Of a stretch of DNA of 38,873 bases, positions 2,926 to 34,668 are shown in pieces. A model generated the notes under the pieces. That model was given only the letters and a program-made list of their open reading frames with translations, was not told the origin of the DNA and made no database searches. The position numbers and the translations under genes were made by a program. The DNA is from an uncultured bacterium. Its GTDB lineage: Bacteria > Chlamydiota > Chlamydiia > Chlamydiales > SM23-39. Location of the stretch: NCBI GenBank assembly GCA_964405125.1, contig CAYOMT010000001.1, positions 1 through 38,873 on the forward strand, given 5' to 3'. Position 1 is the first letter of the stretch, and every line of letters starts with the position of its first letter.

Positions 2926-4806
2926 ATGAAGAAAATCAACTATCTATACTTCGGAATTTACTTTCTCCTTCTCGTACTCATGTCTGCAAGCGGCATTTTC
3001 GTTGTGAAGCCACTGGCAGAATCGAGGTTTTTCTTTTTCCTTTATAGTATGGGGCAAGCCGCTTTAGAAACCTGTTTTTTGATTGCGATTGGATATTTCC
3101 TCGAGCGCCTAACGAATCGAACCCTTTTTTTAGCCTATATCGGCGCCACGTTTTTTCTTTTCATTCTTCACGTACTTGATTTTCTCATGAATCGAATCCT
3201 CGATCTTTCTATCTGGGAAACAATCTCCTTTGTTCTCGATGAAACATTTGCAAATTTCCTCTTTCTTCTCGACGCTTCGGGAATCCCCACTTGGCTTTGG
3301 GTCATTCTCTTTACAACTCTCTTGTTACTCCCTTTTCTCGGGATTGCCCTCTATAAAATCACAGAAAAAATCACTCAAAAATATCCCCTCCCTCTTCCTA
3401 AGGAATCTCTTCCTCTCGCCATTTTTTGCATTCCCGTGGCTCTCATGTTTTGGGATTTTTCCGCTTCCCGCGTGATCCACCCCAATACATATACAGCCTT
3501 TCTCCAATCTCTTCCCTGGAAATTCACCCTGTTACAGCCGAAAAACGTCATTCTCGAAACCCCCTATCTACCCACCATATCCTACACAAAAAAAAGCCTT
3601 GAAAAGGCAACATCTGAAATCACCCTCTCTCAAAACCCCAATATTTACCTCTTTGTCATCGAAAGTTTCCGAGAAGATTTCATCACCCCGGAAGTGGCCC
3701 CTAATCTGTTTGCCTTCAAACAATTATGCGCTCCGATCGATCTCACTTTATCCAATGCAAATGCCTCGCACCTATCTTGGTTTTCGATTTTTCATTCCCA
3801 ATTCTCTCATAACTGGCATCTTTTGCAGCAAACCCACTGGAATATGGGGAGCCCCGCTCTCTATTTTTTAAAAAACTTAGGGTATCAAATCCATCTCTAT
3901 AGCTCTGCGCAGCTCGGGTATTACGGAATGGAAAAACTCCTTTTTGGAGAAAATAATTCTCTTCTCTCCTCCTACCAAAAATTCCATCACATCCCTCCTC
4001 TTTCCGCCGCAGAAACCGACGCAGAAGCTCTAAAAACGATGCAAAAGGATCTAAAAGAAAATCCAGCTATGCACAAGGGACAAATATTTCTTATGTTCTG
4101 GGATGCAACGCACTTCGATTATAGCTGGCCTAAAAATTGGGCTCCAAAATTTGTCCCCTTTGCAAGCGAACTGGCTTACTTCAAGGCCTTTTATTCACAA
4201 AAAAGGATCCATCAGATCAAAAATCGATATCGGAATGCAGTCCATTATGTCGATCATCTTTTTGGGGAGTTTATCCAAAATATCCCCAATAAAGAAGAAG
4301 CCATCATCATTGTCACGGGAGATCATGGAGAGGAATTCTTCGAGCACGGCCATCTATTCCATGGATCCCATCTCGTTCAAGAACAAACCAACATCCCGAT
4401 CTACATGAAATTTGGAGAAAAAATCCCAAAAGAAAAAAGAGTCCTGGCTTCGCAAATGGATATTTTTCCAAGTCTAATCGATTATCTCTCAGGAAAAACC
4501 CCCTCTTTCCTCCAGGGACAATCCATATTCCGTGAAACAAAATGGCCCTTCGCCGTGATCTCTCGCTTCAATGCCGGCAGAACCCCTTATGAATTGTGCA
4601 TTCACAATGGGAAAAATAAATGCATCGCGCAATTTATCGACCGAAAAAATATCCTTCAATCGAACGCTTTGCAAATCATGTCTTTACAAAGCTTCAACGA
4701 CAAAACCCTTCCGGAATCGCATAAAGATGTCCAAGCTTGGATAGATCGAGAATTCGGACCTGCTATTCAAGGTCTTTTTTCTCCAAATCGCGCAGAAAAT
4801 GAGTGA
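2926..4806 (+). CDS. Polytopic membrane protein with a C-terminal alkaline-phosphatase-superfamily (PF00884 sulfatase / EptA / LtaS-like) domain, paralog 1
   Basis: The first ~190 aa are strongly hydrophobic, with about 5-6 helices. Then come NIYLFVIESFRED (metal-binding Glu region), NANASHLSWFSIFHS (putative Ser/Thr nucleophile region, no CxPxR sulfatase motif), RYRNAVHYVD and TGDHGEEFFEHGHLFHG. Confidence 0.75.
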   Translation: MKKINYLYFGIYFLLLVLMSASGIFVVKPLAESRFFFFLYSMGQAALETCFLIAIGYFLERLTNRTLFLAYIGATFFLFILHVLDFLMNRILDLSIWETISFVLDETFANFLFLLDASGIPTWLWVILFTTLLLLPFLGIALYKITEKITQKYPLPLPKESLPLAIFCIPVALMFWDFSASRVIHPNTYTAFLQSLPWKFTLLQPKNVILETPYLPTISYTKKSLEKATSEITLSQNPNIYLFVIESFREDFITPEVAPNLFAFKQLCAPIDLTLSNANASHLSWFSIFHSQFSHNWHLLQQTHWNMGSPALYFLKNLGYQIHLYSSAQLGYYGMEKLLFGENNSLLSSYQKFHHIPPLSAAETDAEALKTMQKDLKENPAMHKGQIFLMFWDATHFDYSWPKNWAPKFVPFASELAYFKAFYSQKRIHQIKNRYRNAVHYVDHLFGEFIQNIPNKEEAIIIVTGDHGEEFFEHGHLFHGSHLVQEQTNIPIYMKFGEKIPKEKRVLASQMDIFPSLIDYLSGKTPSFLQGQSIFRETKWPFAVISRFNAGRTPYELCIHNGKNKCIAQFIDRKNILQSNALQIMSLQSFNDKTLPESHKDVQAWIDREFGPAIQGLFSPNRAENE

Positions 4807-6178
4807 TGGGACCTAACCCCACTTTCCGATCTAGCACATCTCCCTGGGCATCGACTAAAAGAGCTGTCGGCATGGATCGAATATTATATGTATCGCTCAA
4901 ACGCTGCAGCTTATCCACATTCACTTTCAAAAATTTCACCTTCCCGCTCAGTTTCAAAGCCGATTCCTCAAAATAGGGAGCAACTCTTTTGCAAGGACCG
5001 CACCAAGACGCATAAAAATCGATCACAATAGGCCCTTCGCTTTTTTCTAATTCCCTTTCAAACTGCTCAAAACTTCGAATCTCAACGACTTCTGCCGATG
5101 CCGCAAAAGATTTTTCTTTCTCCGGCTCTTTTTTAAAAGCAAGTCCGTTCATTCGATCCGATACATATTGCTGTACTTGAAGAGCCGCCTTCGCGCCATC
5201 TCCCGCAGCAGAAATTGCCTGCTTAAAAATAGGATCGACAATATCGCCGACGGCATAAATGCCTTCCACCGAAGTTTGCTGCCCTTTTTCTACGAGAATG
5301 TATCCTTCAGAGTCCATCTTCAATACATCTTTAAAAAGCTGGCTATTGGGCTTGGATCCAATGGCTAAAAAAAGGCCATCGAGAGAAAACATCTCCTTCT
5401 TTTTCCCATCCCTTTTCAGGATAACCGATTGCACATTATTTCCATCTCCCTTAATTTCAGCAACTTGCGTATTATACATAACCCGGACATTGGGTTTTGC
5501 AAGGAGCATGTCGACCCTCTTTTTTTCTCCGGCTCTCAAGTGGTCTTTACGGACAAAAACGACGACTTCTTTGGCGATATTGGATAAATAAAGAGCCTCG
5601 AGAACGGCTGCATCGCCGCCGCCGACAACACCCACCCGCATTCCCTTATACAAATTTCCATCGCAAATCGCGCAGTTGCTCACCCCTTTGCCCCAATAGC
5701 CCCGAGGCCCTGTTTCTCCGGGGATTCCCAAATAATTGGGCGAGGTTCCCATGGCAATCACACAAGTTTCCGCAAAGAAAGATCGAAGAGTCTCTTTTCC
5801 ATCCACGGAGCGCACTTGAATCACAAAGGGGCGCTTTGAAAAATCGACAGCCACCACTTCTTCTTGGCAAAATTGCGCTCCATTCTGGATGGCTTGCCGG
5901 CGCATTTTTTCAGTTAAAAAATGGCCTTCGATCTCCATTTCGCCGGGCCAATTTTGCACGCTATGAGACTGAGTGAGCAAGCCGCCGGGATTTTGCCCCT
6001 CAATCACAACGGGATGCAGCTCCGCTCTGCCGAGATATAAAGAGGCCGTTAAAGCGCCAATGCCCCCACCTAAAACAACTGCTGGATAAATAGGGTCTTC
6101 TTTTTTCTGGATAGAATAACCTTCTCCACAAAAAACACAAATGCATGCACAGAAAAAAAATTTTCGCAAAACAATCAT
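4763..6178 (-). CDS. trxB: Thioredoxin reductase fused to C-terminal thioredoxin, with an N-terminal Cys-rich hydrophobic segment
   Basis: FAD motif VVLGGGIGALTAS, redox CAICDG (aa 169-174), NAD(P)H motif VGVVGGGDAAVLEA and GDIVD. A linker at about aa 345-365 precedes a Trx fold with WCGPC (aa 392-396). The N-terminus is MIVLRKFFFCACICVFCGEGYS. No in-frame ATG or GTG lies between the start and the FAD motif; the only other start codon there is a TTG at codon 4, which still keeps the hydrophobic segment. Confidence 0.85.
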   Translation of the reverse strand: MIVLRKFFFCACICVFCGEGYSIQKKEDPIYPAVVLGGGIGALTASLYLGRAELHPVVIEGQNPGGLLTQSHSVQNWPGEMEIEGHFLTEKMRRQAIQNGAQFCQEEVVAVDFSKRPFVIQVRSVDGKETLRSFFAETCVIAMGTSPNYLGIPGETGPRGYWGKGVSNCAICDGNLYKGMRVGVVGGGDAAVLEALYLSNIAKEVVVFVRKDHLRAGEKKRVDMLLAKPNVRVMYNTQVAEIKGDGNNVQSVILKRDGKKKEMFSLDGLFLAIGSKPNSQLFKDVLKMDSEGYILVEKGQQTSVEGIYAVGDIVDPIFKQAISAAGDGAKAALQVQQYVSDRMNGLAFKKEPEKEKSFAASAEVVEIRSFEQFERELEKSEGPIVIDFYASWCGPCKRVAPYFEESALKLSGKVKFLKVNVDKLQRLSDTYNIRSMPTALLVDAQGDVLDRKVGLGPITHFLRDLEKKDLE

Positions 6179-6264
6179 TGGCGCCCCCTTTTTTTTTGAC
6201 TATATACCCAAGACAAAATTCTATACATATATTATATAGAAGATTGTTAGAGGGTGTCTACAAA

Positions 6265-8121
6265 GTGAAAAATTTCTTCTCCCAAAAAAGACGAGTGAAT
6301 TATCCCTATTTTGCTTTTCTATGGCTCTTCATTCTTACATTGAGCCTCATTCGCTTTCTTTCCCTTGATATTTCATTTTGGTTTTTCTTTTACTCTCTTT
6401 TTCAAGGGGTCTTTGAAATCGGCATTTTTACCCTGGCGGCCCACATTGTCAAAGCATCCATGCCCCGCTTTGTCTATTTCATTTTACTGACCCTCTTTTT
6501 TACATTGCTCTTGGTTCACTACACCAATTTCACAATGGTCCGATTGCTGGATGTTTCCCTTTCCTATCTTTTAAAATTCTTTGCAGGAGAAGGGATCTCC
6601 CACGTGATCTCTGTTTTCCAGGCAATCAACATGAACCAAAACATGATGATTTTCATCGGCATCACCATCTTATTGATTCCCATTTTTGGAATTGCTCTCT
6701 ACCAAATCACAAATTGGCTGGCTCAAAGAAAAAGCCTCTCTCTTTCCCTTTCCCAAATCGTTTACTCTCTTTTTGCTTGCGGAAGCTTCCTTCTCGCTTT
6801 TGAATGGATTGCGATTCCCTCCCTTTCGAATGCGAGTCATGTCAAATACCAAAAAACTCTTCCCCTTGGGACAACTCTATTCGATCCTTCCATCCCCGTT
6901 GTCGCTCTCTCGCATCCGATCCTTCCTCCCCTTTCTCAAGAAGAGGTCTTAAAACATTTTGAATCCCTCTCTTGCTCTTCTAAACCGAATATTTATCTTT
7001 TTGTCATCGAGACATTCCGCAAAGACTTTATCAATGAAGAAATTTCGCCCCATCTCGCCCATTTCGGCCATGAAAATATGGAGTTCCCTTTTTCTTTTGC
7101 AAACGCCAACTCGACGCAACATTCTTGGTTTGCTATTTTCCACTCTCTTTTTCCCTATCATTGGACAAACTCGAGAAATCATCCCGCTCAAGGAAGCATC
7201 CCTTTGCAGCTTCTCAAACAACTCGGCTATAAAATCCATGTTTATTCCTCGGCAGATTTGCGTTATTTCGATATGGATACAATGATCTTCGGCCCCGAAC
7301 GAATTCTAGCCGATCAAATCGTCGAACTCGCGCCCAATCGATCCATAGAATCGTGGGAAAAAGACGCTCTTGCCATGGGAGCTTTTGAAAAAGACATCTG
7401 TCAGGAAAAGGGGCGGGAAGGAAATCTATTTCTCTTCTTTTTTGATGCCACGCACTCTGAATATAGTTTTCCGGAAGAATTTTCCCATAAATTCACGCCG
7501 ATCATCAAACAAATCGACTATCTCACTTTAGACCCTAAAAATATTGAGCCGATCAAAAACAGATACCGCAATGCAGTGGCTTACATAGACTCTCTTTTCG
7601 AAAAATTTATCTCGACTCTCAAAAAAGAAGAACTCTACGAAACATCGATTATTGCGGTTACGGGAGACCACGGAGAAGAGTTTTTTGAGGAAGGGTCTTT
7701 ATTTCATGGAACGCACCTCAATTCAATCCAGACAAACGTGCCTATCTTTTTTAAATTCCAAAATACATCCCCGCCTGTCTATACAAATACCGCAACCCAC
7801 GTCGATATCTTTCCCTCCATACTCCATTTTCTCACTGAAAAACCCCTCGCAAACGTATTCGACGGCCAATCGATTTTCAAAGAAAATAGATGGCCCTATC
7901 GCCTAGCCATTTTACAAAATGGCGCTAAAACGCCCTCTGAATTCACGATTGAAAAAGAAAATTATAAACTGCACGCCCGATTCTCAAATCCAAAAAATTT
8001 ATACAAAGAAAAAGAGATTGAAATTATTTCTTTGACAACAACGCCTACCCAAGAAGCTCTTAACTCCGAGTCTATATCTAAAATCTTTGAATTCTTAAAT
8101 AATCCAGATAGACTTAATTAA
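6265..8121 (+). CDS. Polytopic membrane protein with a C-terminal PF00884 (EptA/LtaS/sulfatase-fold) domain, paralog 2
   Basis: Same architecture and motif series as 2926-4806: NIYLFVIETFRKD, ANANSTQHSWFAIFHS, RYRNAVAYID, TGDHGEEFFEEGSLFHG. The ORF-track start 6145 would overlap the divergent trxB start. I chose the in-frame GTG at 6265, with AGAGGG 10 nt upstream; the start remains uncertain. Confidence 0.75.
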   Translation: MKNFFSQKRRVNYPYFAFLWLFILTLSLIRFLSLDISFWFFFYSLFQGVFEIGIFTLAAHIVKASMPRFVYFILLTLFFTLLLVHYTNFTMVRLLDVSLSYLLKFFAGEGISHVISVFQAINMNQNMMIFIGITILLIPIFGIALYQITNWLAQRKSLSLSLSQIVYSLFACGSFLLAFEWIAIPSLSNASHVKYQKTLPLGTTLFDPSIPVVALSHPILPPLSQEEVLKHFESLSCSSKPNIYLFVIETFRKDFINEEISPHLAHFGHENMEFPFSFANANSTQHSWFAIFHSLFPYHWTNSRNHPAQGSIPLQLLKQLGYKIHVYSSADLRYFDMDTMIFGPERILADQIVELAPNRSIESWEKDALAMGAFEKDICQEKGREGNLFLFFFDATHSEYSFPEEFSHKFTPIIKQIDYLTLDPKNIEPIKNRYRNAVAYIDSLFEKFISTLKKEELYETSIIAVTGDHGEEFFEEGSLFHGTHLNSIQTNVPIFFKFQNTSPPVYTNTATHVDIFPSILHFLTEKPLANVFDGQSIFKENRWPYRLAILQNGAKTPSEFTIEKENYKLHARFSNPKNLYKEKEIEIISLTTTPTQEALNSESISKIFEFLNNPDRLN

Positions 8122-13753: not shown

Positions 13754-16114
13754 TCAGTTCAGCTGATGGATTTCCTGAATGCATCGCACATAGGTATCGA
13801 TCTGGGCGGGATCCAGTCCCAGCGTCAATCGGATCGTCGAACAATCTTCTGCAAAAAGAACTCCAAAATTAGGATGGTAGAAGCCAAAACTCCTCCGATA
13901 AAAAATCGGAAACCCTTCTTGCATCGATCGCAAATAAAGACACCCCCCGACAATCGCAGATGCCCGAATTTTATGGAACGGACCTGAGACTTTAATGTCT
14001 ATAAACGAAGGATCGACATCCTCTGCGACAGGAACAATCCGGTATCTCCTCTTTGCATCAAACAATTCTTTCGGAACTCTTCCGAGCAGCTCTCTTGTAT
14101 TTTGAAAAATCTGCTTTCGATACAAATCCAATTCCAGATAAGCGTTTTGAAAGCTAAGACAAAACCATTGGAGGCTTAAAGGATCTGTTCTCAAAGCCGG
14201 ATCTTCAAGCAAAGCATCGAAATGGGACCAGTAAGGGTTCTTAGCATGGATGGCAAAATAGGGAGCTCCGCTATAATTATCCATTCCAAAAAGATCAAAT
14301 TTTAACCCGCTCCGATAGCACACGACATTCAAAATCCCTTCTTGAATTTCCTCTTGAAACTCTTCGAGAAGATCTTTAATTCGCGAAGAATCAAGAAAAT
14401 CAATCGTCGCATCCAACGCAACTGTCAGCCTTTTTGTCTTTTGCTTGCCTAAAGATCTCCTAATATTCTCGCAAACCCTCTCCACTTGATATTCCAGATG
14501 CTCGGGATTATCTCGTCGCAAAACAGGGTTAAATTGCATGAGTAAAAGATCCGCCTCCTCCCAATCGAGATCTGTGGCCTCTTCCTCCGAACAAGCAAGT
14601 GTTGCTTGCTTAGCAAGATGGATACACTCAAAATAAGAATTCATCCCATAAATCACTCGGGGCGCTTTCCCAACTGTTTTCTTTGCCGCTTTAAAAATCC
14701 CGGATAATCCCGTCATTCCCGATGCAAAAAGACTATAAGAGCTCAAAGGCCTTAAAGATTCTGGAAAAGATAAAACATCCGCGTAAATTCTTGAAAAATC
14801 CTCAAAATCAAAGGGAGAAAAAATCTCCAAAAGAGGCAAAACATGCAGATATATTTGTTCGACAAGCGCTGCAATTTCAAAAAATGAACACGTCTCTTGA
14901 CTTTTTTTCAGTTTAGCAAGGCATTCGAGAATATTTTCCATCGACATTTGCGCGGCAAGCCGCCTGGTTGGGCATAAAATCTCTCCCATAAAATCGGGAA
15001 GAGAATAAAGAATAGAGAGCATCCCCTCGATCATCACGGAGACATCCTCTCTTTCTATATGATTTATTTCTCCCCACCGACGAATAGATTCTGCAAAAGC
15101 ATCGATTTTAAGATTGGGCAGTACACGAGATCCAATCTTCCGAAAATTTAAATCCTCCGGCAGCCGATCCAGCTCTACAAGACTTGCTGTAAACCCGCCT
15201 GTTGAAACCCAAGCAAGCAGCGCTGCATCCTCTTTTTTTAAACAGATTGCATCGTCCAAAGGCAAAATACGCACCCCTCCGATTCCATTTTGCTCCACTC
15301 GCTGAATACAAAGAAGACGCTCTAAAGGGATGTTGTTTTCTTTGCATTGTTTCCGAAGAGCCATTCGATGCATTTCCCACAACTCGAGCCACTCGGATGG
15401 ATCTAAGCTTCGGCTTGGGAAAAGTTCGGTTACATCGACAACTCGACGTTCCGGATCTATCTCAATATATTCGAAAAAGTTGCAAGGCCGCGTTAAAATC
15501 AGAGGATAGGAAGAAGGATGCGGCAACACCTTTTTCCAGGCAGACATCCGATTCTCATAGACCTTCGAAAAATGGGTGAATGGATCTCTTGCGTAACTAT
15601 TTCTTGTGCTAGGGGAGACTTGGACATGAACCCCGAAACAAGGAGCCATCAGATTCACTTCAGAAGAAAAAAAACCATTGGCTTTTGCAAGCCACCTCTT
15701 TTCTAAAAAGGAAAGAAAAGCCGCCTGATCTTCTGTCTCTTTCGGAATCTGAGAAAGACGAAATCGATTCTCATCCCACGAATGGTGGGTCTTGGGGATC
15801 CATCCCCCCTCACAAGATCGAACCCAAGAAGAAGGAGCCTCCATCATCTGCTGGAAAACAATTTGAGAAGAAGAAAAACAAAGTCCGCTTAAAAATCGAC
15901 AATCCTTCAAATGGGCTTCATCCCATCCAATCAAAGAGCCCATGTGGGCCAGGAAAGACCCCATTCCAAGCGCTACACCTAAGCCGAAATATACAATCCG
16001 ATCCACCATCGAATGGAATATATTCACAAGATCTATCCGATCCCTCCAGATCTCCCCATAAGATGTCTTAAAGTGAAGGGCAAGAAAGAAGGAACCTAAA
16101 AAACCACAGGCCAA
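13754..16114 (-). CDS. Large orphan protein (786 aa): N-terminal hydrophobic segments, an unknown central region, and a C-terminal domain with a Cys/Met-metabolism PLP-enzyme-like motif series
   Basis: Long uninterrupted ORF. The track start is a TTG without an obvious SD, so the real start may be an internal ATG (aa 36, 51 or 58). Hydrophobic stretches are ACGFLGSFFLAL and IVYFGLGVALGMGSFLAHMGSLIGW. C-terminal motifs are listed under findings. The product call is inference. Confidence 0.6.
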   Translation of the reverse strand: MACGFLGSFFLALHFKTSYGEIWRDRIDLVNIFHSMVDRIVYFGLGVALGMGSFLAHMGSLIGWDEAHLKDCRFLSGLCFSSSQIVFQQMMEAPSSWVRSCEGGWIPKTHHSWDENRFRLSQIPKETEDQAAFLSFLEKRWLAKANGFFSSEVNLMAPCFGVHVQVSPSTRNSYARDPFTHFSKVYENRMSAWKKVLPHPSSYPLILTRPCNFFEYIEIDPERRVVDVTELFPSRSLDPSEWLELWEMHRMALRKQCKENNIPLERLLCIQRVEQNGIGGVRILPLDDAICLKKEDAALLAWVSTGGFTASLVELDRLPEDLNFRKIGSRVLPNLKIDAFAESIRRWGEINHIEREDVSVMIEGMLSILYSLPDFMGEILCPTRRLAAQMSMENILECLAKLKKSQETCSFFEIAALVEQIYLHVLPLLEIFSPFDFEDFSRIYADVLSFPESLRPLSSYSLFASGMTGLSGIFKAAKKTVGKAPRVIYGMNSYFECIHLAKQATLACSEEEATDLDWEEADLLLMQFNPVLRRDNPEHLEYQVERVCENIRRSLGKQKTKRLTVALDATIDFLDSSRIKDLLEEFQEEIQEGILNVVCYRSGLKFDLFGMDNYSGAPYFAIHAKNPYWSHFDALLEDPALRTDPLSLQWFCLSFQNAYLELDLYRKQIFQNTRELLGRVPKELFDAKRRYRIVPVAEDVDPSFIDIKVSGPFHKIRASAIVGGCLYLRSMQEGFPIFYRRSFGFYHPNFGVLFAEDCSTIRLTLGLDPAQIDTYVRCIQEIHQLN

Positions 16115-16140: not shown

Positions 16141-17073
16141 CTATTTTGTTCGCGCCTTTGTTGGAGTGCCAAAATGAAACATCGGGTTATCCGGATCTAA
16201 GCGCTTTGTATGGTAATAGGCCGCTTTATGTTCTCCTTCCCTCAACCGATTGTGAGTGAAAAACATCGCTCTTCTCGAAGAAGAACTCCGATTGGGCTCG
16301 GAATAATGGGGCACATAGGAATTGAAAAACACCACATCGCCTGGCTCGGCTTCAATCGGGATCCACGTAATTTTCTCCGACAATTCCGGTTGAATCGATC
16401 CATGAGCGCTCCCTCCTACGACATAAGGAAGGACGGCGGATCCCTTTTCGAGCAATTCAGCATCTACATCCTCGGCAAATGTTTCTTTCCAATTTTTCGC
16501 AATCTGAAGACACCCATTTTCTATCGTAGCAGTATCAATGCAAACCATGGCAGTGATATGTTCGCGAGGCCCAAAAAATTCAAAGGCAGGAAAATCTTGG
16601 TGCGGAGGAAAGGCTCCTCCCCCAGGCCATTTAAAATTGATTTTATCTTTGAAAAGAACATAAGGCTCCCCCAAAAAAGAACTGAGGTAAGTTGTCAAAG
16701 TTCCATAGACAAAATGATCCAAATCGGGATAACAAGCCAATAAATCTTCTGCTCGGCATACCTTCAAAGGATCTTTCGCTTCGGGAACCACAATCAAAGC
16801 CCCGGGCAAGCTCTGTGCAAACTCCTGCAGAGAAATCCCCGTTGTTTTGGAAAGAGAAAGCAAATGCAAAGAAGCTTCGTCGATAGCTTCAGACCAAGCC
16901 CTGAGGAGCATCACCTGCTCCGGAGAATAAAATCCTCGGACCCATAAGTATCCGTCCTTTTCAAAAAGAGCCTTCTGCGATTCCCAATGCGTCTGAGTTT
17001 GTTTCGGAGGAGGAAAATCTGCAAAAACAACCTGAACCACAAGAGAAAACACTAAAATTAAAACATGTTTCAT
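16141..17073 (-). CDS. PhyH-family Fe(II)/2-oxoglutarate-dependent dioxygenase with an N-terminal Sec-type signal peptide
   Basis: MKHVLILVFSLVVQVVFA|D signal, FEKDGYLWVRGFYSPEQV, WPGGGAFPPHQDFPAF (HxD), TATIENGCLQIA, EPGDVVFFNSYVPHYSEPNRSSSSRRAMFF (distal His and Arg). The ATG overlaps the upstream stop (ATGA). GGGAGA is a plausible SD. Confidence 0.85.
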   Translation of the reverse strand: MKHVLILVFSLVVQVVFADFPPPKQTQTHWESQKALFEKDGYLWVRGFYSPEQVMLLRAWSEAIDEASLHLLSLSKTTGISLQEFAQSLPGALIVVPEAKDPLKVCRAEDLLACYPDLDHFVYGTLTTYLSSFLGEPYVLFKDKINFKWPGGGAFPPHQDFPAFEFFGPREHITAMVCIDTATIENGCLQIAKNWKETFAEDVDAELLEKGSAVLPYVVGGSAHGSIQPELSEKITWIPIEAEPGDVVFFNSYVPHYSEPNRSSSSRRAMFFTHNRLREGEHKAAYYHTKRLDPDNPMFHFGTPTKARTK

Positions 17074-28315: not shown

Positions 28316-30238
28316 CTATTTTGTCTTATTTAATCGAAGAGGGCTAAAAAGTCGTCCTCCGCCCTCGAAACTATAATGAAACCACTCCAAAAAATTCAAA
28401 CGAAGTCCATGTACGACTCCGCCCATCAAACAGATCAAAATGTTGATCGAGTGTCCGAGCAAAATCAATAAAACGGTGATAAATATCCCCGGGTCAACTC
28501 CCAATGCATCATTGAACGTATGCGCCATGACCATGCTCCCCAAAGCCAGAGCATAAAGGCGCAGATAAGAAAGAATATCGGCAAAAATCTGCACCGAGTG
28601 CAAAAGCTCCTGAAAAGCGCCCCACTTTTCCCGGATCAATGCCGCGATAAAAGCCAAGGAGACTCCCCCAATAATGAGCCACGCGCCCCAAAAATAGGCT
28701 TCTATCTTCGGAATCCAACCCATAAAATTGACGAGCACGGTCGCATGAATGATCGAAGGAAAATAAAGATACCCCCCGATAATAAAGCACACCCAGCCCA
28801 AGCCCGACTCTCTTCTTTTCAAATACCGCAAAAGAGAAAGGCTGATGTGGATGATCCCAATTAAAAAAGAAAATTCGAGAAGGATATTGTCTGAAAACTC
28901 TTCAAAGACAGGATACGTTTTCTTATCCGAAATCATCTGCGTTGCATCCAAAAGCAAATCTTCGCCGCTTTGTGCAGAAGACACCGCTGGATAGTCTTTG
29001 AGAATCTCTTGATATACATCGTCCTTCATCGCGAAATGGTAATCTGCCTTTTTCTCTACGAGAAACCCGAGGAGCGAATATTTTTCAATCGGATGATTGG
29101 GAGCAAATCCGATCCCAAAATAGGATGCCGTCAAAACGCCCCACAAAATCGAGCAAGTGGACAGAATCACGCTCAGTTTGACCATTCTTTTTTTCACGCC
29201 TTGAAGGCTCGGAAATTTCCTCCGAATCCAAAGCGAGATGCAAAGGAAAATCAGCCCATATCCGGCATCGGCTATAATCATCGAAAAAAAGAGGGCAAAA
29301 AAGACGAGGACCCACATCGAAGGGTCTTTATCCTTGTGCGATGGCGTGTCAAAAATATGAAGAATATCTTCGCCGATTTTTGCCAAGCCTGTATTTTCTA
29401 AATGAGTCGGCACAATATCTTTTTTCTCAATCGCAATTTTCTCCGCTTCCACATTGAGTCCGCTGAGCAAGCCTGCAAGAGAAGATTCCCTCGTCTTCGG
29501 CACCCACGCTTCTATGGCAAATAATCCATTGTTCAAACTAAGAACTGCATTGTGCTTAGCTAAACGGAGATGGTATTCATTCAAATCCTCGACAAGACCC
29601 GACTGGAGTTTGGGAAGATAATTGGAAAAAGTGCGGATATCGCTTTCCATTTTCGCGATCTCTTCGCGCAAAACTTGCAAGCGCTCTCGCAATACTCCGA
29701 CCGGACGATCGATCGTGATCTCGATCATTTTGGGGTATTGCTTCCTTTCCTCGTGAATGGCAACGAAATAATCCAAATCATATTCCGTTCCCACATGAAT
29801 GAGCTCAGGCGGCAGCGACATTTCAGAGGCCAAATCGCTTTTCATACAAAAAAATTGGAATACTTTTTTTGTCTCATTTTCCAATTGATTGAGATCCTCT
29901 CTCGAAAAATCTCCAAATGCAGAAATGCGGGAGATCTCCGCAATGAGAACTCTCTCTTCTTCAAAAAGGACTTCCTCCTCAGCTTTCATAGAAACGATCT
30001 TCTCGGCAATTTTTTCTATAGAAAGATCCGTTGAAGGAGCTTCTTGAGGATGCGTTGGGTAATGTTTCGCAATTTTAATCGCCGTAAGGAATGTTCTTGC
30101 GCTCTGGGGAAGCTCTAAAACTCTTTTTCGAGAAGAGCCGATAAACTCTAAAAACCCAGCTCTTTGCGCCAAAGAGAAAAACAAATCCATCTCTTTCCGA
30201 TTGCCAAAAATAAGATACTTTTCAACATCGACAATCAT
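28316..30238 (-). CDS. atpI: V-type ATPase subunit I (a)
   Basis: 640 aa with an N-terminal soluble coiled-coil half and a C-terminal multi-TM half. The latter contains the a-subunit Arg motif ILSYLRLYALALG. The start overlaps the atpD stop (ATGA). Confidence 0.9.
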   Translation of the reverse strand: MIVDVEKYLIFGNRKEMDLFFSLAQRAGFLEFIGSSRKRVLELPQSARTFLTAIKIAKHYPTHPQEAPSTDLSIEKIAEKIVSMKAEEEVLFEEERVLIAEISRISAFGDFSREDLNQLENETKKVFQFFCMKSDLASEMSLPPELIHVGTEYDLDYFVAIHEERKQYPKMIEITIDRPVGVLRERLQVLREEIAKMESDIRTFSNYLPKLQSGLVEDLNEYHLRLAKHNAVLSLNNGLFAIEAWVPKTRESSLAGLLSGLNVEAEKIAIEKKDIVPTHLENTGLAKIGEDILHIFDTPSHKDKDPSMWVLVFFALFFSMIIADAGYGLIFLCISLWIRRKFPSLQGVKKRMVKLSVILSTCSILWGVLTASYFGIGFAPNHPIEKYSLLGFLVEKKADYHFAMKDDVYQEILKDYPAVSSAQSGEDLLLDATQMISDKKTYPVFEEFSDNILLEFSFLIGIIHISLSLLRYLKRRESGLGWVCFIIGGYLYFPSIIHATVLVNFMGWIPKIEAYFWGAWLIIGGVSLAFIAALIREKWGAFQELLHSVQIFADILSYLRLYALALGSMVMAHTFNDALGVDPGIFITVLLILLGHSINILICLMGGVVHGLRLNFLEWFHYSFEGGGRLFSPLRLNKTK

Positions 30239-30843
30239 CGGTTTGCCTTTTTTAGAGCGATTTTTTTCTTTGCGACCTTTGCTTGCGCGACAAGAGAAAG
30301 CTGCTGATCGCTTAAAAAGATCCGAATTTTTTTAATGTTTTCCAAGGAACGGGGAATCAAAATCTTCTCAAATAAATTCACCCGGATGGATACGGATCTA
30401 AGCTCTTTTTCCAAAGCTCTTTTCTTTTCCTCTCCAATGCTCACCTTTTCACGGATCGTCGCAAATTCCCTTAGAATTTCAGTCGCCTGATCCGTCCATG
30501 CGGGAGTATCAAAAAGAGAGTAATCTGCATCGCGAAAGACAATGCTATCAAAAATCGGAATCTCGACGCCCGCGATGTTTTCGTAGCGTTTTTTTACATG
30601 CAAAACATCTGCGTAAATCGTCAAATTCACCGTCACTTTCTCTAAAAGAAAAGAAGCGAACTCCTCTACTTGATGCCGAACGAGCCTCATTTCCTCCGTA
30701 AGCCGAGAAATCTCCAATTGCGCAAGGGAGACCTCGAATTGGAGCATGGCTTTTTTTAATTGCAATGTCGGAAGATACCGCTGAAATTGAGAAAGGCGCG
30801 TCTGCTGATTGCGAAGTTCATTTTTTGTCAGCTTCAGCGCCAT
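30235..30843 (-). CDS. atpD: V-type ATPase subunit D
   Basis: 202 aa. MALKLTKNELRNQQTRLSQFQRYLPTLQLKK resembles the N-terminus typical of V/A-type D subunits. It is a long coiled coil positioned between B and I. Confidence 0.88.
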   Translation of the reverse strand: MALKLTKNELRNQQTRLSQFQRYLPTLQLKKAMLQFEVSLAQLEISRLTEEMRLVRHQVEEFASFLLEKVTVNLTIYADVLHVKKRYENIAGVEIPIFDSIVFRDADYSLFDTPAWTDQATEILREFATIREKVSIGEEKKRALEKELRSVSIRVNLFEKILIPRSLENIKKIRIFLSDQQLSLVAQAKVAKKKIALKKANR

Positions 30844-30846
30844 CCG

Positions 30847-32160
30847 CTATCTCCCTAGAGCCTCGCGAGGCCAGTATTTATCGGCGATCTGTTTTTTCAC
30901 GCCAATTTCTTCCAGTTCAAAGCATTCCGCCAATGTCAGCCAACCCAAATCAAGGGCTTTTTCCAGCGCCAAATTCACCTGGAGATTCATCATCCTCTCT
31001 TCAAAAAGGAATGAATAGCGAAGCAATTTTTCATCCCACCGAGAAAGGCGGAAGCCCATCGATTGTCTTTCCCTTGCTTTCTTCGAATCGGCATAGAGGC
31101 GGATCATCGTATTTGCAAGATCTCCATGATCTTCGCGCGTCACTTTCCCAATCACTTGCTGCTTGAGTCGAGAAAGAGAACCAAATGGATCAATCGATCC
31201 TCCATGCAGATAAAACTGCCCTTCCGTAATATATCCCGTATTATCGGGCACCGGATGGGTGACATCGCCTCCGGGCATCGTCGTCACAGAAAGAACGGTG
31301 ATCGATCCGCTCCCCTCGATGTCGACGGCCTTCTCATAGCGCGCGGCAAGATCTGAATAAAGAGATCCCGGATAGCCCCGATTGGCCGGAATTTGATCCA
31401 TTGTGATCGCAATTTCCTTAATCGCATCGGCAAAAGCGGTCATATCGGTCATTAAAACAAGGACATCTTTGCCTTCGATCGCAAATTTCTCCGCAACCGC
31501 AAGAGCCATATCGGGAACGAGCAAACATTCGACGGCAGGATCCGTCGCTTGATGGATAAACATCACTGTCTTCTCAATGGAACCTGCCCGCTCTGAATTG
31601 TCGATAAAGGCCGCATAGTCATCAAAACGCAGTCCCATCCCTGCAATCACCACGACATCTACATCCGTTTGATTGGCAATCCGCATCATCAAAGCGTTGT
31701 AAGGCTCTCCTGCAACGGAAAAAATCGGAATCTTCTGCGATCTCACAAGACAATTGAAGACATCGATCATCGGGATATTGGTTCGGACGAGCTCTCGGGG
31801 GATAATCCTCTTCGTCGGATTGAAAGAGGGGCTTCCCAAATCAACGAGATCGCCAAACACTTCGGGCCCGCCATCTACAGGCTCCCCCGCGCCATTGAAA
31901 CGCCGGCCTAAAAGGGAGGGGCTAAAACTAGCCTGCATTTGCTTTCCCAAAAAAGTGACATGGTCCCCTGTCGAAATGCCCCGCGTATTTTCAAATGCCT
32001 GACAAGTCACTAAATCATCGTCAAAACGCAAAACAGAGGCGTACGTCGTCGTGCCATTGGATTTGTGAATACGAGCCACCTCTCCCAAACGGACACCCTC
32101 GGCTGCAACGGAAATCAGATTCCCCCGCATATCAATAATTCGATCGTATATTTTTCTCAT
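30847..32160 (-). CDS. atpB: V-type ATPase subunit B
   Basis: 437 aa. [19 protein letters not shown] and ITEGQFYL are typical of V/A-type B subunits. The start overlaps the atpA stop (ATGA). Confidence 0.93.
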
Positions 32161-33908
32161 GTCTTCTTTTTTATCTTCTCTTGAACCTCTGCCATCGCAC
32201 TCAAATAACTCTGCGAGCGGAAGGGAAGAAAATTAATGTTTTTGATTTCGTTTTGTAAATTCAGGAAAAAACTCCTCGCCATATCGTGCGCATCAAAAGA
32301 AAATTGGATATCGAAGATCTTCTGAATCAGCGCAAACATTTCAATTTGCCTCTCTAAAGGACAATAGGCATCCTCTTTATCGAATGCATTTTGCTGGAGA
32401 TAACAAAATTCGTATAGCTCCGACTTCAGATAAACTACCATATCTGAAATCGCAACTCCCTCTTCGCCAACAACTTCCATCCTCTTGCCAATTTCATCTC
32501 CCCGGCGCATAATTTGGGCCCCATTTTTTACTTTATCGGCCCAATGATCGAGTTTGTCATCCAACTGCTTGCCTGCGGCGTCGAGATATTTTGTCCAAGA
32601 GATCAAAGGATCGACCGCCGGATAGCGGCGCGCATCGGATCTGGCTCTAGAAAGACCATGGAAAGCGCCGACAATGGCAAGAGAAGCCTGGGTGACCGGT
32701 TCTTCAAAATTTCCTCCGGCCGGAGAGACGCTGCCGCCGATTGTCAAAGACCCTTCTTTTCCATTTTTCAATAAAATCTCCCCGGATCTTTCGTAGAAAG
32801 CGGATATGCGGGAAGCCAAATAAGCTGGAAAGGCCTCTTCTCCGGGAATCTCTTCGAGCCTTCCCGACATTTCTCTCATCGCCTGCGCCCAACGAGAGGT
32901 GGAATCTGCAAGAAGCAATACATCGAGTCCCATCTGCCGGTAATATTCAGCAATCGCGGCGCCCATGTAAACAGAGGCTTCGCGCGCCGCTACAGGCATC
33001 GAGGAAGTATTGCAAATCATCGAGGTCCGATTCATCAAGGGCTCGTTTGTATGCGGGTCGACCAGATCGGGAAAAGTACGCAAGACTTCGACCACTTCAC
33101 CCGCTCTTTCTCCGCACGCCACAATGACGACGATGTCGACATCGGAATATTTGGAAAGGTGGTGCTGCATCACGGTTTTTCCCGCGCCAAAAGGACCCGG
33201 AGAACAAAAAGTTCCTCCTTTCAACACAGGAAATTGGGTATCGAGAATGCGCAATCCCGTATCCATCATTCTTGTGGGGCGAACTTTTTTTCCCTCCATC
33301 AAAGCGTTTTTTACAGGCCACTTTTGAAGCATTTTAAAGGATACTTTCTGCCCCTTTTCATCTTCCCCTTCCGCAATCGCGGTCTCTATGGAATAAGAAC
33401 CTTGCTTTGCAACGGAAGTGATTCTCACATTCCCGAAAAAAGAAAAAGGAACCATGATCAGATGAGAAAACCTTCCTTCTGGAACAGAGCCTAAAGTATC
33501 GCCGCGGCGCAGCACATCCCCTGCTTTTGCAACGGGAGTAAATTCCCAAAGCCTTTCTCGATCTAAAGGAGGTAAATACACGCCGCGCGAAAGATAAAGA
33601 CCGGTTGCGGCAGCTACTTTTTCCAAAGGATTCTGCAGCCCATCAAAAATAGAGCTAAGCAAGCCAGGCCCCAATTCGGCTTCTAAAAGATGCCCCTCAA
33701 AACGGACAGGGGTATTTAATTTAATTCCGCGCGTATCTTCGAAAACCTGAACTTTCGCTTCATCTCCGGCAATTTCAATCACTTCGGCGAGTAAATGCTC
33801 ATTTTCAACGTGAATGCGAGCCATTTCCCCCTGACGAACAGAACCATCAAATCGAACATGCAGGAGATTGCCAAAAGCCTGCACAACAACACCTGTTGCA
33901 TTACCCAT
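32157..33908 (-). CDS. atpA: V-type ATPase catalytic subunit A
   Basis: 583 aa. Walker [37 protein letters not shown] and GSVSPAGG. Confidence 0.95.
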
Positions 33909-34668
33909 ATTTACTCAACTCTTCGATTGCCATATTTTCTCTTTCTCGATCTGGCGGCAAGATGCTTTCCACAATCAGTAACCTTGCAGCATATGCTAAA
34001 ATTCGATCCAACGTAAAGAATTCATTTTCTTCCCACTCTCCGATTTTCTCGAAGCGGTATTTTAAAAAAACCTCGGATAATTTACGAGGATCTGCAGAAT
34101 GCTCCTCAAAAAGGACTTTTACCTCTTCGTATTCCATGGGAGGGATGTAAGTAGACCCCTCTTTTTGGGCCAATATTTGCGCAACAAAAGGATCTTGCGG
34201 ATCTTCAAACTGCAGCTCCCTCACAATATCCCTGCCTACTTTTTTTGCTCTCAGCGCAGTCAAAACGAGGCGCAATTCGCGCTCGAAAGCGTAGTATTTC
34301 GCTATAAATCCTCTCGTTTCCTGCCGATACATCGCGGCATAAAGAAAGGAAAAATAATGGAGGCGCTCCTCAATGGATTCATAGCGGTCTAAAAAATCAG
34401 AAAGATAGGGAGGCAATGCATCGCGCACTAAGAGAGCCTCTTCCAATTCTTTGCCCGTCATCGTGCCCCGATCATCCATAGGCAATCCGAGCCAGAGGGC
34501 TTTGATGTTGTATACATCGATGGATTCGAGAAGAAGATGGAACTCTTCTAAATCGCGCGGAGTCAAATTCACCGACAAAAGATCGCGCAGCTCCTTAAAA
34601 GACATTTCGGGAGCCGTTTTAAGGGAGAGGGAAGGGAGTGCTGTTGCAAGGAAATAATATTTTGCCAC
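33901..34668 (-). CDS. DUF2764-like protein in the position of V-ATPase subunit C/d (equivalent to chlamydial CT309)
   Basis: 255 aa with a GTG start and TAGGA SD. (M)AKYYFLATALPSL matches my memory of the N-terminus of DUF2764 proteins encoded in V-ATPase operons. It overlaps the atpA start by 8 nt. The family call is from memory and not verified. Confidence 0.6.
   Translation of the reverse strand: MAKYYFLATALPSLSLKTAPEMSFKELRDLLSVNLTPRDLEEFHLLLESIDVYNIKALWLGLPMDDRGTMTGKELEEALLVRDALPPYLSDFLDRYESIEERLHYFSFLYAAMYRQETRGFIAKYYAFERELRLVLTALRAKKVGRDIVRELQFEDPQDPFVAQILAQKEGSTYIPPMEYEEVKVLFEEHSADPRKLSEVFLKYRFEKIGEWEENEFFTLDRILAYAARLLIVESILPPDRERENMAIEELSKYG

What the first reader, a model, noticed from the sequence alone, without database searches (positions are those of the whole stretch)
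13754..14797. Cryptic Cys/Met-metabolism (fold-type I) PLP-enzyme-like domain at the C-terminus of the 786-aa orphan
Seen in sequence (aa ~440-786): an ordered motif series parallels the CGS/CBL/CGL family. LFASGMTGLSGIF parallels sSGMaAi. DLLLMQFNPVL parallels lv.lE.P.NPll. LTVALDATIDF parallels vvDNTf, the pyridine-N Asp (candidate D568). NVVCYRSGLKFDLFGMDNYSG parallels ivvhSaTKylgGhsD..G, the SxxK Schiff-base Lys (candidate K605). RRSFGFYHP parallels a.SlGgveS. The near-terminal TIRLTLGLDPAQIDTYVRCIQE parallels LvRlSvGiEd.eDLi.DLe.A. The order and spacing of six motifs make chance unlikely, but identity is very low. The domain is fused to about 440 aa of unknown sequence that begins with hydrophobic segments. 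That architecture is not typical for this enzyme family.
Basis: inference. Interest (0 to 1): 0.7.

Follow-up and report, generated by a model that had tools for sequence, protein, structure and literature searches.

The report
Hidden vitamin-B6 enzyme domain in chlamydiae
The C-terminal third of this 786-residue chlamydial protein is predicted with high confidence to be a real but very diverged vitamin-B6 (PLP) enzyme domain, and it defines a large unannotated protein family that, wherever a source organism is named, is found only in chlamydiae.

Summary
All six motifs are at the stated positions in the ORF 13754-16114 (-). D568 and K605 are invariant in 42 orthologues and in 167 diverged family members.

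Sequence methods detect nothing: Pfam, NCBIfam, PDB sequence searches and an hhalign test against a Cys/Met-enzyme alignment were all negative.

A template-free AlphaFold2 model is confident (pLDDT 90.2, pTM 0.90). Foldseek gives 197 PDB matches at E<=1e-3. The 50 listed are all fold-type I PLP enzymes, led by methionine gamma-lyase, followed among others by cystathionine gamma-lyase, beta-lyase and gamma-synthase.

The strand order places D568 at the end of strand e and S602-x-x-K605 just after strand f, as in canonical enzymes.

The protein is not an orphan. A profile search finds 690 clusters at 50% identity, and every one with a named source is Chlamydiota.

All share a conserved ~450-residue C-terminal module, and most show at least a weak match to the N-terminal module, which has no structural relative. 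The orthologue group carries signal-peptide-like N-termini. Some paralogues are fused to C26 or M15 peptidase domains.

Verdict: a new, highly diverged variant of fold-type I PLP enzymes. Substrate and reaction remain unknown.

The parts
13754..16114 (-). Whole gene, 786 aa from a TTG start. A database gene call (P0001) starts at M36, giving 751 aa.
   Evidence: ORF list. There are 42 homologues with E<=1e-150. Residues 9-18, FFLALHFKTS, are conserved in P0002, P0003 and P0005, which supports the long start.
16064..16114 (-). N-terminal hydrophobic, signal-peptide-like segment (aa 1-17).
   Evidence: Orthologues begin with M-(K/R)-x followed by a 12-16-residue hydrophobic core and then polar residues. 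A simple hydropathy scan flags this in 53 of 150 full-length family members, essentially the orthologue group. This is inferred; no SignalP run was available.
15923..15997 (-). Second, Gly/Ala-rich hydrophobic helix (aa 40-64). It may be a membrane anchor or may pack against the protein.
   Evidence: Kyte-Doolittle 19-residue mean of 1.6, the highest in the protein. Modelled as part of helix 29-59.
14765..15832 (-). Family-specific N-terminal module (aa ~95-450). It has an alpha/beta part (strands 205-208, 224-227, 267-284) and a helical part (337-447).
   Evidence: Residues R176, Y186, K194, R209, D227, E314 and R317 are invariant in orthologues. An nterm HMM (aa 95-336) matches 128 of 186 family proteins at E<=1e-3, weakly in the distant ones. 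Several motifs (FL..xWLAK, Y-x-R, D227) also recur in the most distant paralogues. Modelled alone it reaches pLDDT 72.9 and gives no Foldseek PDB hit at E<=1e-3.
15581..15601 (-). Invariant SYARDP loop (Y174-x-R176).
   Evidence: Y and R are conserved across the family. This is the only stretch of the full model with pLDDT below 50, residues 173-175. Its role is unexplained.
14195..14761 (-). PLP-binding large domain (aa ~452-640) with seven strands: a 458-463, b 486-489, c 506-509, d 523-526, e 563-568, f 595-600, g 617-622.
   Evidence: DSSP of the AF2 model. Foldseek matches to fold-type I PLP enzymes.
14711..14722 (-). S465-G466-M467-T468, the putative phosphate-binding loop at the start of the helix after strand a.
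   Evidence: M467 is conserved in 134 of 167 members. E. coli MetB G76/M77 align to G466/M467 in 21 of 22 (G466) and 21 of 23 (M467) sub-threshold alignments.
14627..14635 (-). Y494-F-E496. Y494 is the putative PLP ring-stacking residue.
   Evidence: Position 494 is Y in 154 and H in 13 of 167 members. E496 is conserved in 166 of 167. MetB Y101 aligns to Y494 in 22 of 24 alignments.
14525..14536 (-). Q527-F-N529-P530 after strand d. N529 is the putative O3' hydrogen-bond partner.
   Evidence: N is conserved in 138 of 167 members. The role is inferred from general fold-type I knowledge.
14405..14413 (-). D568-A-T570 at the end of strand e. D568 is the putative partner of the pyridine N1.
   Evidence: D is conserved in 167 of 167 and T in 165 of 167 members. 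MetB D173 and T175 align to D568 and T570 in 6 of 8 and 6 of 7 alignments.
14300..14311 (-). S602-G603-L604-K605 after strand f. K605 is the putative Schiff-base lysine.
   Evidence: S and K are conserved in 167 of 167 members, G in 166 of 167. D612 (+7) and G616 (+11) have the same spacing as in MetB, where K198 is followed by D205 and G209. Residues 601-610 have pLDDT 63, as expected for a cofactor-free loop.
14084..14182 (-). Long helix 645-677 linking the large and small domains.
   Evidence: DSSP of the model. W650, Y665 and S647 are conserved.
13757..14047 (-). Small C-terminal alpha/beta domain (aa ~690-786).
   Evidence: Strands 691-693, 705-710, 749-754 and 758-764; helices 714-732 and 771-783.
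13817..13831 (-). R762-L-T-L-G766. R762 is the putative binder of the substrate alpha-carboxylate.
   Evidence: R is conserved in 167 of 167 and G in 162 of 167 members. MetB R361 aligns to R762 in 42 of 48 alignments and G365 to G766 in 42 of 47. This is the only segment hhalign aligned.

Best explanation
Residues ~452-786 fold as a genuine, probably catalytically active, fold-type I PLP-dependent enzyme domain. It has diverged beyond the reach of sequence profiles.

Proposed mechanism, with roles inferred by position:
- PLP is held as an internal aldimine on K605.
- D568 pairs with the pyridine nitrogen.
- Y494 stacks on the ring.
- N529 bonds O3'.
- The S465-G-M-T loop and S602 hold the phosphate.
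- R762 binds the alpha-carboxylate of an amino-acid substrate.

The substrate would displace K605 by transaldimination. The chemistry that follows is most likely of the Cys/Met-enzyme type, meaning beta/gamma elimination or replacement. The reaction class is not established.

The domain always follows a conserved helical region (aa ~337-450). In most members a recognisable family-specific N-terminal module (aa ~95-336) with its own conserved residues precedes that region. This module probably shapes the active site or sets specificity.

In the window's orthologue group the protein begins with a signal-peptide-like segment and a second hydrophobic helix. It probably works at or beyond the inner membrane.

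The gene belongs to an expanded, multi-paralogue family whose named sources are all Chlamydiota.

Shown: the fold, the topology, the conservation, the family size and the fusions. Inferred: PLP binding, individual residue roles, export, and reaction type.
For: - AF2 without templates gives pLDDT 90.2 and pTM 0.90.
- Foldseek against the PDB gives 197 hits at E<=1e-3. The top 50 are all fold-type I PLP enzymes. Best is MGL 9hee_A at E=5.4e-7 with target-normalised TM 0.68. CGL, CBL, CGS, Kbl and Asp beta-decarboxylase follow.
- The N-terminal part modelled alone gives no such hits, so the match lies in the C-terminal part.
- The seven-strand order, the long linker helix and the small domain put D568 and S602..K605 at canonical sites.
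- D568, S602, K605, G744 and R762 are 100% conserved in 167 relatives clustered at 50% identity. E496, Y542, T570, G603, G610, D612 and D644 are 99% conserved.
- Sub-threshold Cys/Met-HMM alignments are register-consistent for G466/M467, Y494, D568/T570 and R762/G766. They are co-linear only for real sequences: r=0.55, against 0.02 reversed and 0.01 shuffled.
- Anchor spacings are similar. MetB G76-Y101-D173-K198-R361 gives 25/72/25/163; here G466-Y494-D568-K605-R762 gives 28/74/37/157.
- The family has 690 clusters at E<=1e-3.
- The 77 genome loci are almost all labelled as chlamydial lineages or left unclassified; the few with other labels are treated here as mislabelled Chlamydiota MAGs.
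- Signal-like N-termini occur in the orthologue group.
Against: - No sequence-profile method gave a significant link to any PLP family.
- The lysine motif itself was never aligned by HMMER.
- Sub-threshold alignments from related sequences are not independent.
- The K605 loop is modelled at only pLDDT ~63.
- PLP binding is untested.
- Export is inferred from hydropathy alone. The window protein lacks a positively charged N-region, and most distant paralogues lack the signal.
- There is no conserved gene neighbourhood to indicate a pathway.
Confidence: 0.8

Rival explanations
1. The domain is a fold-type I PLP enzyme but does not perform Cys/Met-type lyase or synthase chemistry. It could be an aminotransferase, an alpha-oxoamine synthase-like enzyme, a decarboxylase or a racemase. 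It could act on amino acids released from gamma-glutamyl or D-Ala-containing peptides such as peptidoglycan stem peptides.
For: - Foldseek E-values for Kbl (3tqx, 3.2e-6), an acyl-CoA transferase (7v58), Asp beta-decarboxylase (2zy3, 1.3e-6), ALT2 and HisC are in the same range as the Cys/Met enzymes.
- There is no PF01053 hit.
- Paralogues are fused to pentapeptide repeats plus Peptidase_C26 (gamma-glutamyl hydrolase type) at the N-terminus: P0084, P0113, P0117, P0126, P0127. Others carry Peptidase_M15_4 (D-Ala-D-Ala carboxypeptidase type) at the C-terminus: P0138, P0120.
- E. coli MetC itself is annotated with alanine racemase activity.
Against: - The motif spacing K-x6-D-x3-G, D-x-T, and the C-terminal R-L-x-x-G are those of the Cys/Met family.
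- The best single structural hit is a methionine gamma-lyase.
- The fusions occur in a few distant paralogue groups, not in the window's orthologue group.
- There is no Arg at K+8, unlike class I aminotransferases (seen directly in the sequence; the comparison rests on my own knowledge of that family).
Confidence: 0.35
2. The domain keeps the fold-type I architecture but is a non-catalytic pseudoenzyme. It would act as a binding or scaffold module, for example in a secreted effector.
For: - The family is expanded into many paralogues with variable N-termini, tandem copies and added domains, as effector families often are.
- There is no conserved metabolic neighbourhood.
- The divergence from all known PLP families is extreme.
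Against: The exact residues needed for PLP chemistry are conserved in 165-167 of 167 sequences that are otherwise as little as ~30% identical: K605, D568, S602, T570 and R762. Pseudoenzymes typically lose such residues.
Confidence: 0.07
3. The resemblance is chance, or an artefact of the structure predictor, and there is no PLP-type domain.
For: All sequence-profile tests were negative. Individual sub-threshold HMMER scores are no better than for reversed sequences: top score 3.9 against 3.0.
Against: - The model was made without templates and is very confident.
- 197 Foldseek hits at E<=1e-3 converge on one superfamily.
- The functional residues fall at the correct topological sites and are invariant.
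- Co-linearity appears only in real sequences.
Confidence: 0.02

Closest known systems
Cys/Met-metabolism PLP-dependent enzymes (Pfam PF01053): cystathionine gamma-synthase MetB, cystathionine beta-lyase MetC, cystathionine gamma-lyase, methionine gamma-lyase (PDB 9hee, 7ba4, 1ibj, 6ld7, 1gc2)
   Same: - Best structural neighbours.
- Same order and similar spacing of the S-G-M loop, the aromatic stacker, D-x-T, S-x-x-K-x6-D-x3-G and the C-terminal R-L-x-x-G.
- An invariant Arg at the position of the alpha-carboxylate-binding Arg.
   Different: - No significant HMM or HMM-HMM match, and only 11-15% identity in the structural alignments.
- About 450 extra N-terminal residues, including a module with no structural relative.
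- A signal-like N-terminus.
- The D-to-K spacing is 12 residues longer.
- The N-terminal Tyr-x-Arg phosphate clamp of the partner subunit has no equivalent at the usual distance. An invariant Y174-x-R176 lies 290 residues upstream instead.
Other fold-type I PLP enzymes: alpha-oxoamine synthases (Kbl 3tqx, 7v58), class I/II aminotransferases (3ihj, 3ly1), L-aspartate beta-decarboxylase (2zy3, 3fdd)
   Same: Same superfamily fold, with comparable Foldseek E-values of 1e-6 to 1e-5. The decarboxylase and ALT2 also have extended N-terminal regions.
   Different: The long alignments to the decarboxylases have rmsd of 11-15 A, so the N-terminal parts do not truly superpose. The motifs around the lysine and the C-terminal Arg follow the Cys/Met pattern rather than theirs (sequence inspection plus my own knowledge).
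Periplasmic broad-spectrum amino-acid racemases such as Vibrio BsrV (my own knowledge, not tested here)
   Same: A precedent for a Sec-exported PLP enzyme working on amino acids in the periplasm. This would parallel the predicted export and the peptidase fusions.
   Different: Those are fold-type III (alanine racemase fold), so they are unrelated in structure. Export of the present protein is only inferred.

Membership tests
Fold-type I PLP-dependent enzyme superfamily (aspartate aminotransferase fold) | A large alpha/beta/alpha domain with a seven-stranded sheet (strands a-g in sequence), a long connecting helix, and a small C-terminal alpha/beta domain. | tested here: met
   AF2 model with pLDDT 90.2 has seven strands between 458 and 622, helix 645-677, and a small domain at 690-786. 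Foldseek gives 197 PDB hits at E<=1e-3, and the top 50 are all fold-type I.
Fold-type I PLP-dependent enzyme superfamily (aspartate aminotransferase fold) | The Schiff-base lysine lies in the loop after strand f, usually preceded by a Ser or Thr three residues earlier. | tested here: met
   S602-G-L-K605 follows strand 595-600. S and K are conserved in 167 of 167 members. The assignment is by position only; no superposition was available.
Fold-type I PLP-dependent enzyme superfamily (aspartate aminotransferase fold) | An Asp at the C-terminal end of strand e pairs with the pyridine N1. | tested here: met
   D568 ends strand 563-568 and is conserved in 167 of 167 members. MetB D173 aligns to it in 6 of 8 sub-threshold alignments.
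Fold-type I PLP-dependent enzyme superfamily (aspartate aminotransferase fold) | The protein actually binds PLP (absorbance near 420 nm, reducible aldimine). | not testable with these tools
   This needs purified protein.
Fold-type I PLP-dependent enzyme superfamily (aspartate aminotransferase fold) | A homodimer with active sites at the subunit interface. | not tested
   Only monomer models could be made, and no coordinates were returned.
Cys/Met-metabolism PLP enzymes (PF01053) | A significant match to the family profile. | tested here: not met
   No PF01053 hit at E<=10 for the protein, or at E<=1 for any of the 42 homologues. hhalign of a 167-sequence profile against a 14-sequence CGS/CBL/MGL alignment gives E=0.28.
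Cys/Met-metabolism PLP enzymes (PF01053) | The ordered signature residues: S-G-M loop, stacking Tyr, D-N-T, S-x-T-K-x6-D-x3-G, and the C-terminal R-x-S-x-G carboxylate-binding Arg. | tested here: inconclusive
   All have positional counterparts: G466/M467, Y494, D568/T570, S602/K605/D612/G616, R762/G766. Spacing is similar. Sub-threshold alignments are register-consistent and co-linear. None is individually significant, and the Lys motif was not aligned.
Cys/Met-metabolism PLP enzymes (PF01053) | An N-terminal Tyr-x-Arg from the neighbouring subunit clamps the phosphate, about 30 residues before the SGM loop. | tested here: inconclusive
   An invariant Y174-x-R176 exists but lies 290 residues upstream. 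Only 2 of 5 weak alignments pair it with MetB Y46/R48.
Cys/Met-metabolism PLP enzymes (PF01053) | The closest structural neighbours belong to this family and are clearly separated from other fold-type I families. | tested here: inconclusive
   MGL, CGL, CBL and CGS make up most of the top 50, but Kbl, Asp beta-decarboxylase and aminotransferases have similar E-values.

The most novel reading that the evidence does not exclude
A family specific to chlamydiae consists of exported or membrane-anchored PLP enzymes. Their unique N-terminal module supplies in cis, through the invariant Y174-x-R176 loop, the phosphate-clamping residues that canonical Cys/Met-family enzymes borrow from a partner subunit. 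The enzymes act outside the cytoplasm on amino acids released from gamma-glutamyl or D-Ala peptides, for example peptidoglycan stem peptides. This would link them to the unusual cell-wall and D-amino-acid metabolism of chlamydiae.
Probability: 0.1. Interest if true: 0.8.

Novelty: new variant of a known kind. Interest (0 to 1): 0.58.

Why it matters
If confirmed, hundreds of chlamydial 'hypothetical proteins' gain a biochemical class. There are 690 clusters at 50% identity, and they are absent from Pfam and NCBIfam. The family would become a testable target: a PLP enzyme with a defined catalytic lysine.

The combination of features is unusual for this superfamily:
- a fold-type I catalytic core;
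- a ~350-residue module with no detectable structural relative;
- apparent export signals in one subgroup;
- expansion into paralogues, some fused to peptidases of the gamma-glutamyl and D-Ala-D-Ala types.

This could point to unknown amino-acid or cell-envelope chemistry in obligate intracellular bacteria. It also shows that motif order read by eye can pick up a domain that profile HMMs miss and that only structure prediction confirms.

Tried and rejected
- Pfam, NCBIfam and PDB sequence searches, with the single sequence and with a 42-sequence profile, found nothing relevant. The only hit was a sub-threshold LPD15 match at 578-605 (E=0.007, 4 of 42 members), which I dismissed.
- hhalign against E. 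coli MetB+MetC gave E=0.49. Against 14 diverse CGS/CBL/MGL sequences fetched from E. coli and plasmids it gave E=0.28. Neither is significant.
- A database search seeded with MetB to build a deeper template returned only homologues of 86-97% identity, so it was of little use.
- A search seeded with an alignment of distant paralogues returned only 2 proteins.
- Two cluster look-ups yielded one named member: Protochlamydia WP_068467984.1, named after its C26 domain.
- Gene neighbourhood gave no clue. The window's lpxD/PhyH context is not conserved in 77 other loci, and no neighbour family occurs in more than 9 of them. The most frequent are an MFS transporter, an EamA transporter, an SDR and NifS/NifU.
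- The N-terminal module modelled alone gave no structural match.
- Homology of Y174-x-R176 to MetB Y46-x-R48 is not supported.
- Four literature searches found no description of the family; a fifth, for exported fold-type I PLP enzymes in general, found nothing relevant.
- There is no second family member and no canonical Cys/Met PLP gene in the window.
Full report
**The object.** The finding lies in the C-terminal part of one ORF, window 13754..16114 on the minus strand, 786 aa from a TTG start. Residues 440-786 correspond to nt 14797-13757. The gene is real: 42 homologues match over nearly the full length with E<=1e-150. A database gene call starts at M36, but residues 9-18 (FFLALHFKTS) are conserved in the nearest homologues, so the long start is preferred.

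**Genomic setting.** The window is a piece of a chlamydial chromosome. It carries recR-bamA-ompH-lpxD upstream on the other strand. On the same strand it carries a PhyH-type dioxygenase, a cytidylyltransferase and TrpRS. Further on lie a Pkn kinase, HtrA, ValRS and a V-type ATPase operon.

**Sequence-level tests are negative.** hmmscan against Pfam and NCBIfam finds no PLP family for the protein or for its C-terminal part, even at E<=10. A scan of all 42 homologues at E<=1 also finds none. phmmer, and an hmmsearch with the 42-sequence profile, find no solved structure.

I built a Cys/Met-family alignment from real sequences: E. coli MetB and MetC plus 12 plasmid-borne CGS/CBL/MGL genes. hhalign of a 167-sequence family profile against it gives E=0.28. 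Only 'tIRinpGLdP' is aligned, to 'lvRlsvGiE'. By profile statistics the similarity is therefore not demonstrable, and the domain really is cryptic.

**Structure-level test is positive.** AlphaFold2 without templates, run on the 42-sequence alignment, gives mean pLDDT 90.2 and pTM 0.90. Foldseek against the PDB gives 197 matches at E<=1e-3. The 50 listed are all fold-type I PLP enzymes:
- methionine gamma-lyase 9hee_A (E=5.4e-7, target-normalised TM 0.68);
- cystathionine gamma-lyases, beta-lyases and gamma-synthases;
- Kbl;
- L-aspartate beta-decarboxylase;
- aminotransferases.

As a control, residues 93-452 modelled alone (pLDDT 72.9) give no hit at E<=1e-3. The match therefore resides in the C-terminal part.

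**Topology.** The model's secondary structure gives the canonical sequence of elements:
- strand a (458-463), followed by S465-G-M-T at a helix N-terminus;
- strands b (486-489) and c (506-509);
- strand d (523-526), followed by N529;
- strand e (563-568), ending in D568;
- strand f (595-600), followed by S602-G-L-K605;
- strand g (617-622);
- a long helix (645-677);
- a small alpha/beta domain (690-786).

**Conservation.** A profile search of 1.84 billion cluster representatives finds 690 family members at E<=1e-3 and 290 at E<=1e-30. I aligned 167 of the best 150-plus sequences over the C-terminal module. D568, S602, K605, G744 and R762 are 100% conserved. E496, Y542, T570, G603, G610, D612 and D644 are 99% conserved. 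Y494 is Y or H in every sequence (the positions printed there are 2 too low).

This conservation argues strongly for a working cofactor site and against a pseudoenzyme.

**Residue equivalences.** No coordinates were available for a superposition, so I used two indirect tests.

First, the spacing of the anchors. In MetB, G76-Y101-D173-K198-R361 gives 25/72/25/163. Here, G466-Y494-D568-K605-R762 gives 28/74/37/157. K605-x6-D612-x3-G616 copies MetB K198-x6-D205-x3-G209.

Second, I ran the Cys/Met HMM with all filters off against the 167 C-terminal modules and collected the sub-threshold local alignments:

| MetB residue | Family residue | Alignments agreeing |
|---|---|---|
| G76 / M77 | G466 / M467 | 21 of 22 (G466); 21 of 23 (M467) |
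| Y101 | Y494 | 22 of 24 |
| D173 / T175 | D568 / T570 | 6 of 8 and 6 of 7 |
| R361 / G365 | R762 / G766 | 42 of 48 (R762); 42 of 47 (G766) |
| K198 | none | never covered |

Individual scores are no better than for reversed sequences. However, HMM position and sequence position correlate only in the real set: r=0.55, against 0.02 reversed and 0.01 shuffled. The sequences are related to each other, so this is supportive evidence, not proof.

**The rest of the protein and the family.** The module shared by the whole family begins near residue 340, and a more diverged N-terminal module (95-336) is still detectable in many members. In an alignment of 14 distant paralogues the N-terminal motifs FL..xWLAK, Y-x-R (Y174/R176) and D227 (and probably R317) persist. 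The upstream region is thus an integral part of the family and not an accidental fusion.

The only model segment with pLDDT below 50 is 173-175, inside the invariant SYARDP loop. The K605 loop is the other weak block, at pLDDT 63. Both may need the cofactor or a partner to become ordered, but this is unexplained.

**N-termini.** Those of the window's orthologue group look like Sec signal peptides followed by a Gly/Ala-rich hydrophobic helix. Most distant paralogues instead have polar N-termini or a single internal hydrophobic segment.

**Added domains.** Some long paralogues carry pentapeptide repeats plus Peptidase_C26 at the N-terminus. One of these is Protochlamydia WP_068467984.1. Others carry Peptidase_M15_4 at the C-terminus. 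Paralogues can occur in tandem.

**Taxonomy.** All 77 loci found in species-representative genomes are MAGs. Most are labelled as chlamydial lineages (Rhabdochlamydiaceae, Simkaniaceae, Parachlamydiales and similar); others are unclassified or labelled Verrucomicrobia or Acidobacteriota, which I treat as mislabelled Chlamydiota. The search patterns were strict, so absence from Chlamydiaceae is not established.

**Gene neighbourhood.** It is not conserved. The commonest neighbours each occur in at most 9 of 77 loci: an MFS transporter, an EamA transporter, an SDR, and NifS/NifU.

**Interpretation.** The best-supported reading (about 0.8) is a real PLP-dependent enzyme domain. K605 would be the aldimine lysine, D568 the N1 partner, Y494 the ring stacker and R762 the carboxylate binder. 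The domain is embedded in a family-specific architecture and, in this orthologue group, is probably exported or membrane-anchored.

Motif pattern and best structural hits make it closest to the Cys/Met-metabolism enzymes. I do not file it as a member of PF01053, because the profile test failed. The reaction class stays open, and I give about 0.35 to chemistry other than Cys/Met-type. The peptidase fusions are a lead towards substrates derived from gamma-glutamyl or D-Ala peptides. A pseudoenzyme (0.07) or a chance resemblance (0.02) is unlikely.

**Novelty and interest.** Four literature searches found no description of the family; a fifth, for exported fold-type I PLP enzymes in general, found nothing relevant. 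It is absent from Pfam and NCBIfam. I rate it a new variant of a known kind: the catalytic fold is classical, while the divergence, the N-terminal module, the apparent export and the expansion within chlamydiae are new. Interest is moderate to fairly high (0.58). The discovery is testable at once with a spectrum and a K605A mutant, but function and substrate are still unknown.

Noticed in passing
window 16141-17073 (-): A PhyH-type (phytanoyl-CoA dioxygenase-like) 2OG-Fe(II) oxygenase with a signal-peptide-like N-terminus (MKHVLILVFSLVVQVVFADF). It lies 26 nt upstream of the target on the same strand and overlaps the preceding cytidylyltransferase gene by 4 nt, so the genes may form an operon. 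A PhyH homologue is near the target in only 2 of 77 other loci.
   Followed up: partly
window 15581-15601 (-), aa 172-178: The invariant SYARDP loop (Y174-x-R176) is the only part of the full model with pLDDT below 50. It resembles the Tyr-x-Arg phosphate clamp of Cys/Met-family enzymes but lies 290 residues before the SGM loop. Homology is not supported by weak alignments.
   Followed up: partly
P0084, P0113, P0117, P0126, P0127; P0138, P0120 (distant family members): Five paralogue clusters of about 1420-1510 aa carry pentapeptide repeats plus a Peptidase_C26 / GATase domain in front of the family module. Two clusters carry a C-terminal Peptidase_M15_4 (D-Ala-D-Ala carboxypeptidase type) domain.
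   Followed up: partly
L092 4892-7741 and 8001-11165 (GCA_030147755.1): Two distant family paralogues (949 and 1054 aa) sit in tandem. A class V aminotransferase gene lies about 500 nt downstream on the other strand. NifS-like and NifU genes also recur near orthologues in 5 of 77 loci.
   Followed up: partly
window 2926-4806 (+) and 6145-8121 (+): Two large paralogous Sulfatase-domain proteins (626 and 658 aa) flank a thioredoxin-reductase/thioredoxin fusion gene (4763-6178, minus strand). Their domain makes LTA-synthase or phosphoethanolamine-transferase types a possibility, which I did not test.
   Followed up: no
window 33901-34668 (-): A DUF2764 protein is encoded at the head of the V-type ATPase gene cluster (28316-34668).
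   Followed up: no
window 14300-14380 (-), aa 578-605: A sub-threshold Pfam match to LPD15 (large polyvalent-protein-associated domain 15) with E=0.007, seen in 4 of 42 homologues. It overlaps the helix and strand before K605. I judged it to be chance.
   Followed up: partly
L023, L065 and several other loci from genome contigs: Several MAGs that carry the gene are labelled 'Chlamydia trachomatis', 'Verrucomicrobia' or 'Acidobacteriota' in their records. They encode clear orthologues of this environmental-chlamydia protein, so the taxonomic labels are probably wrong.
   Followed up: no
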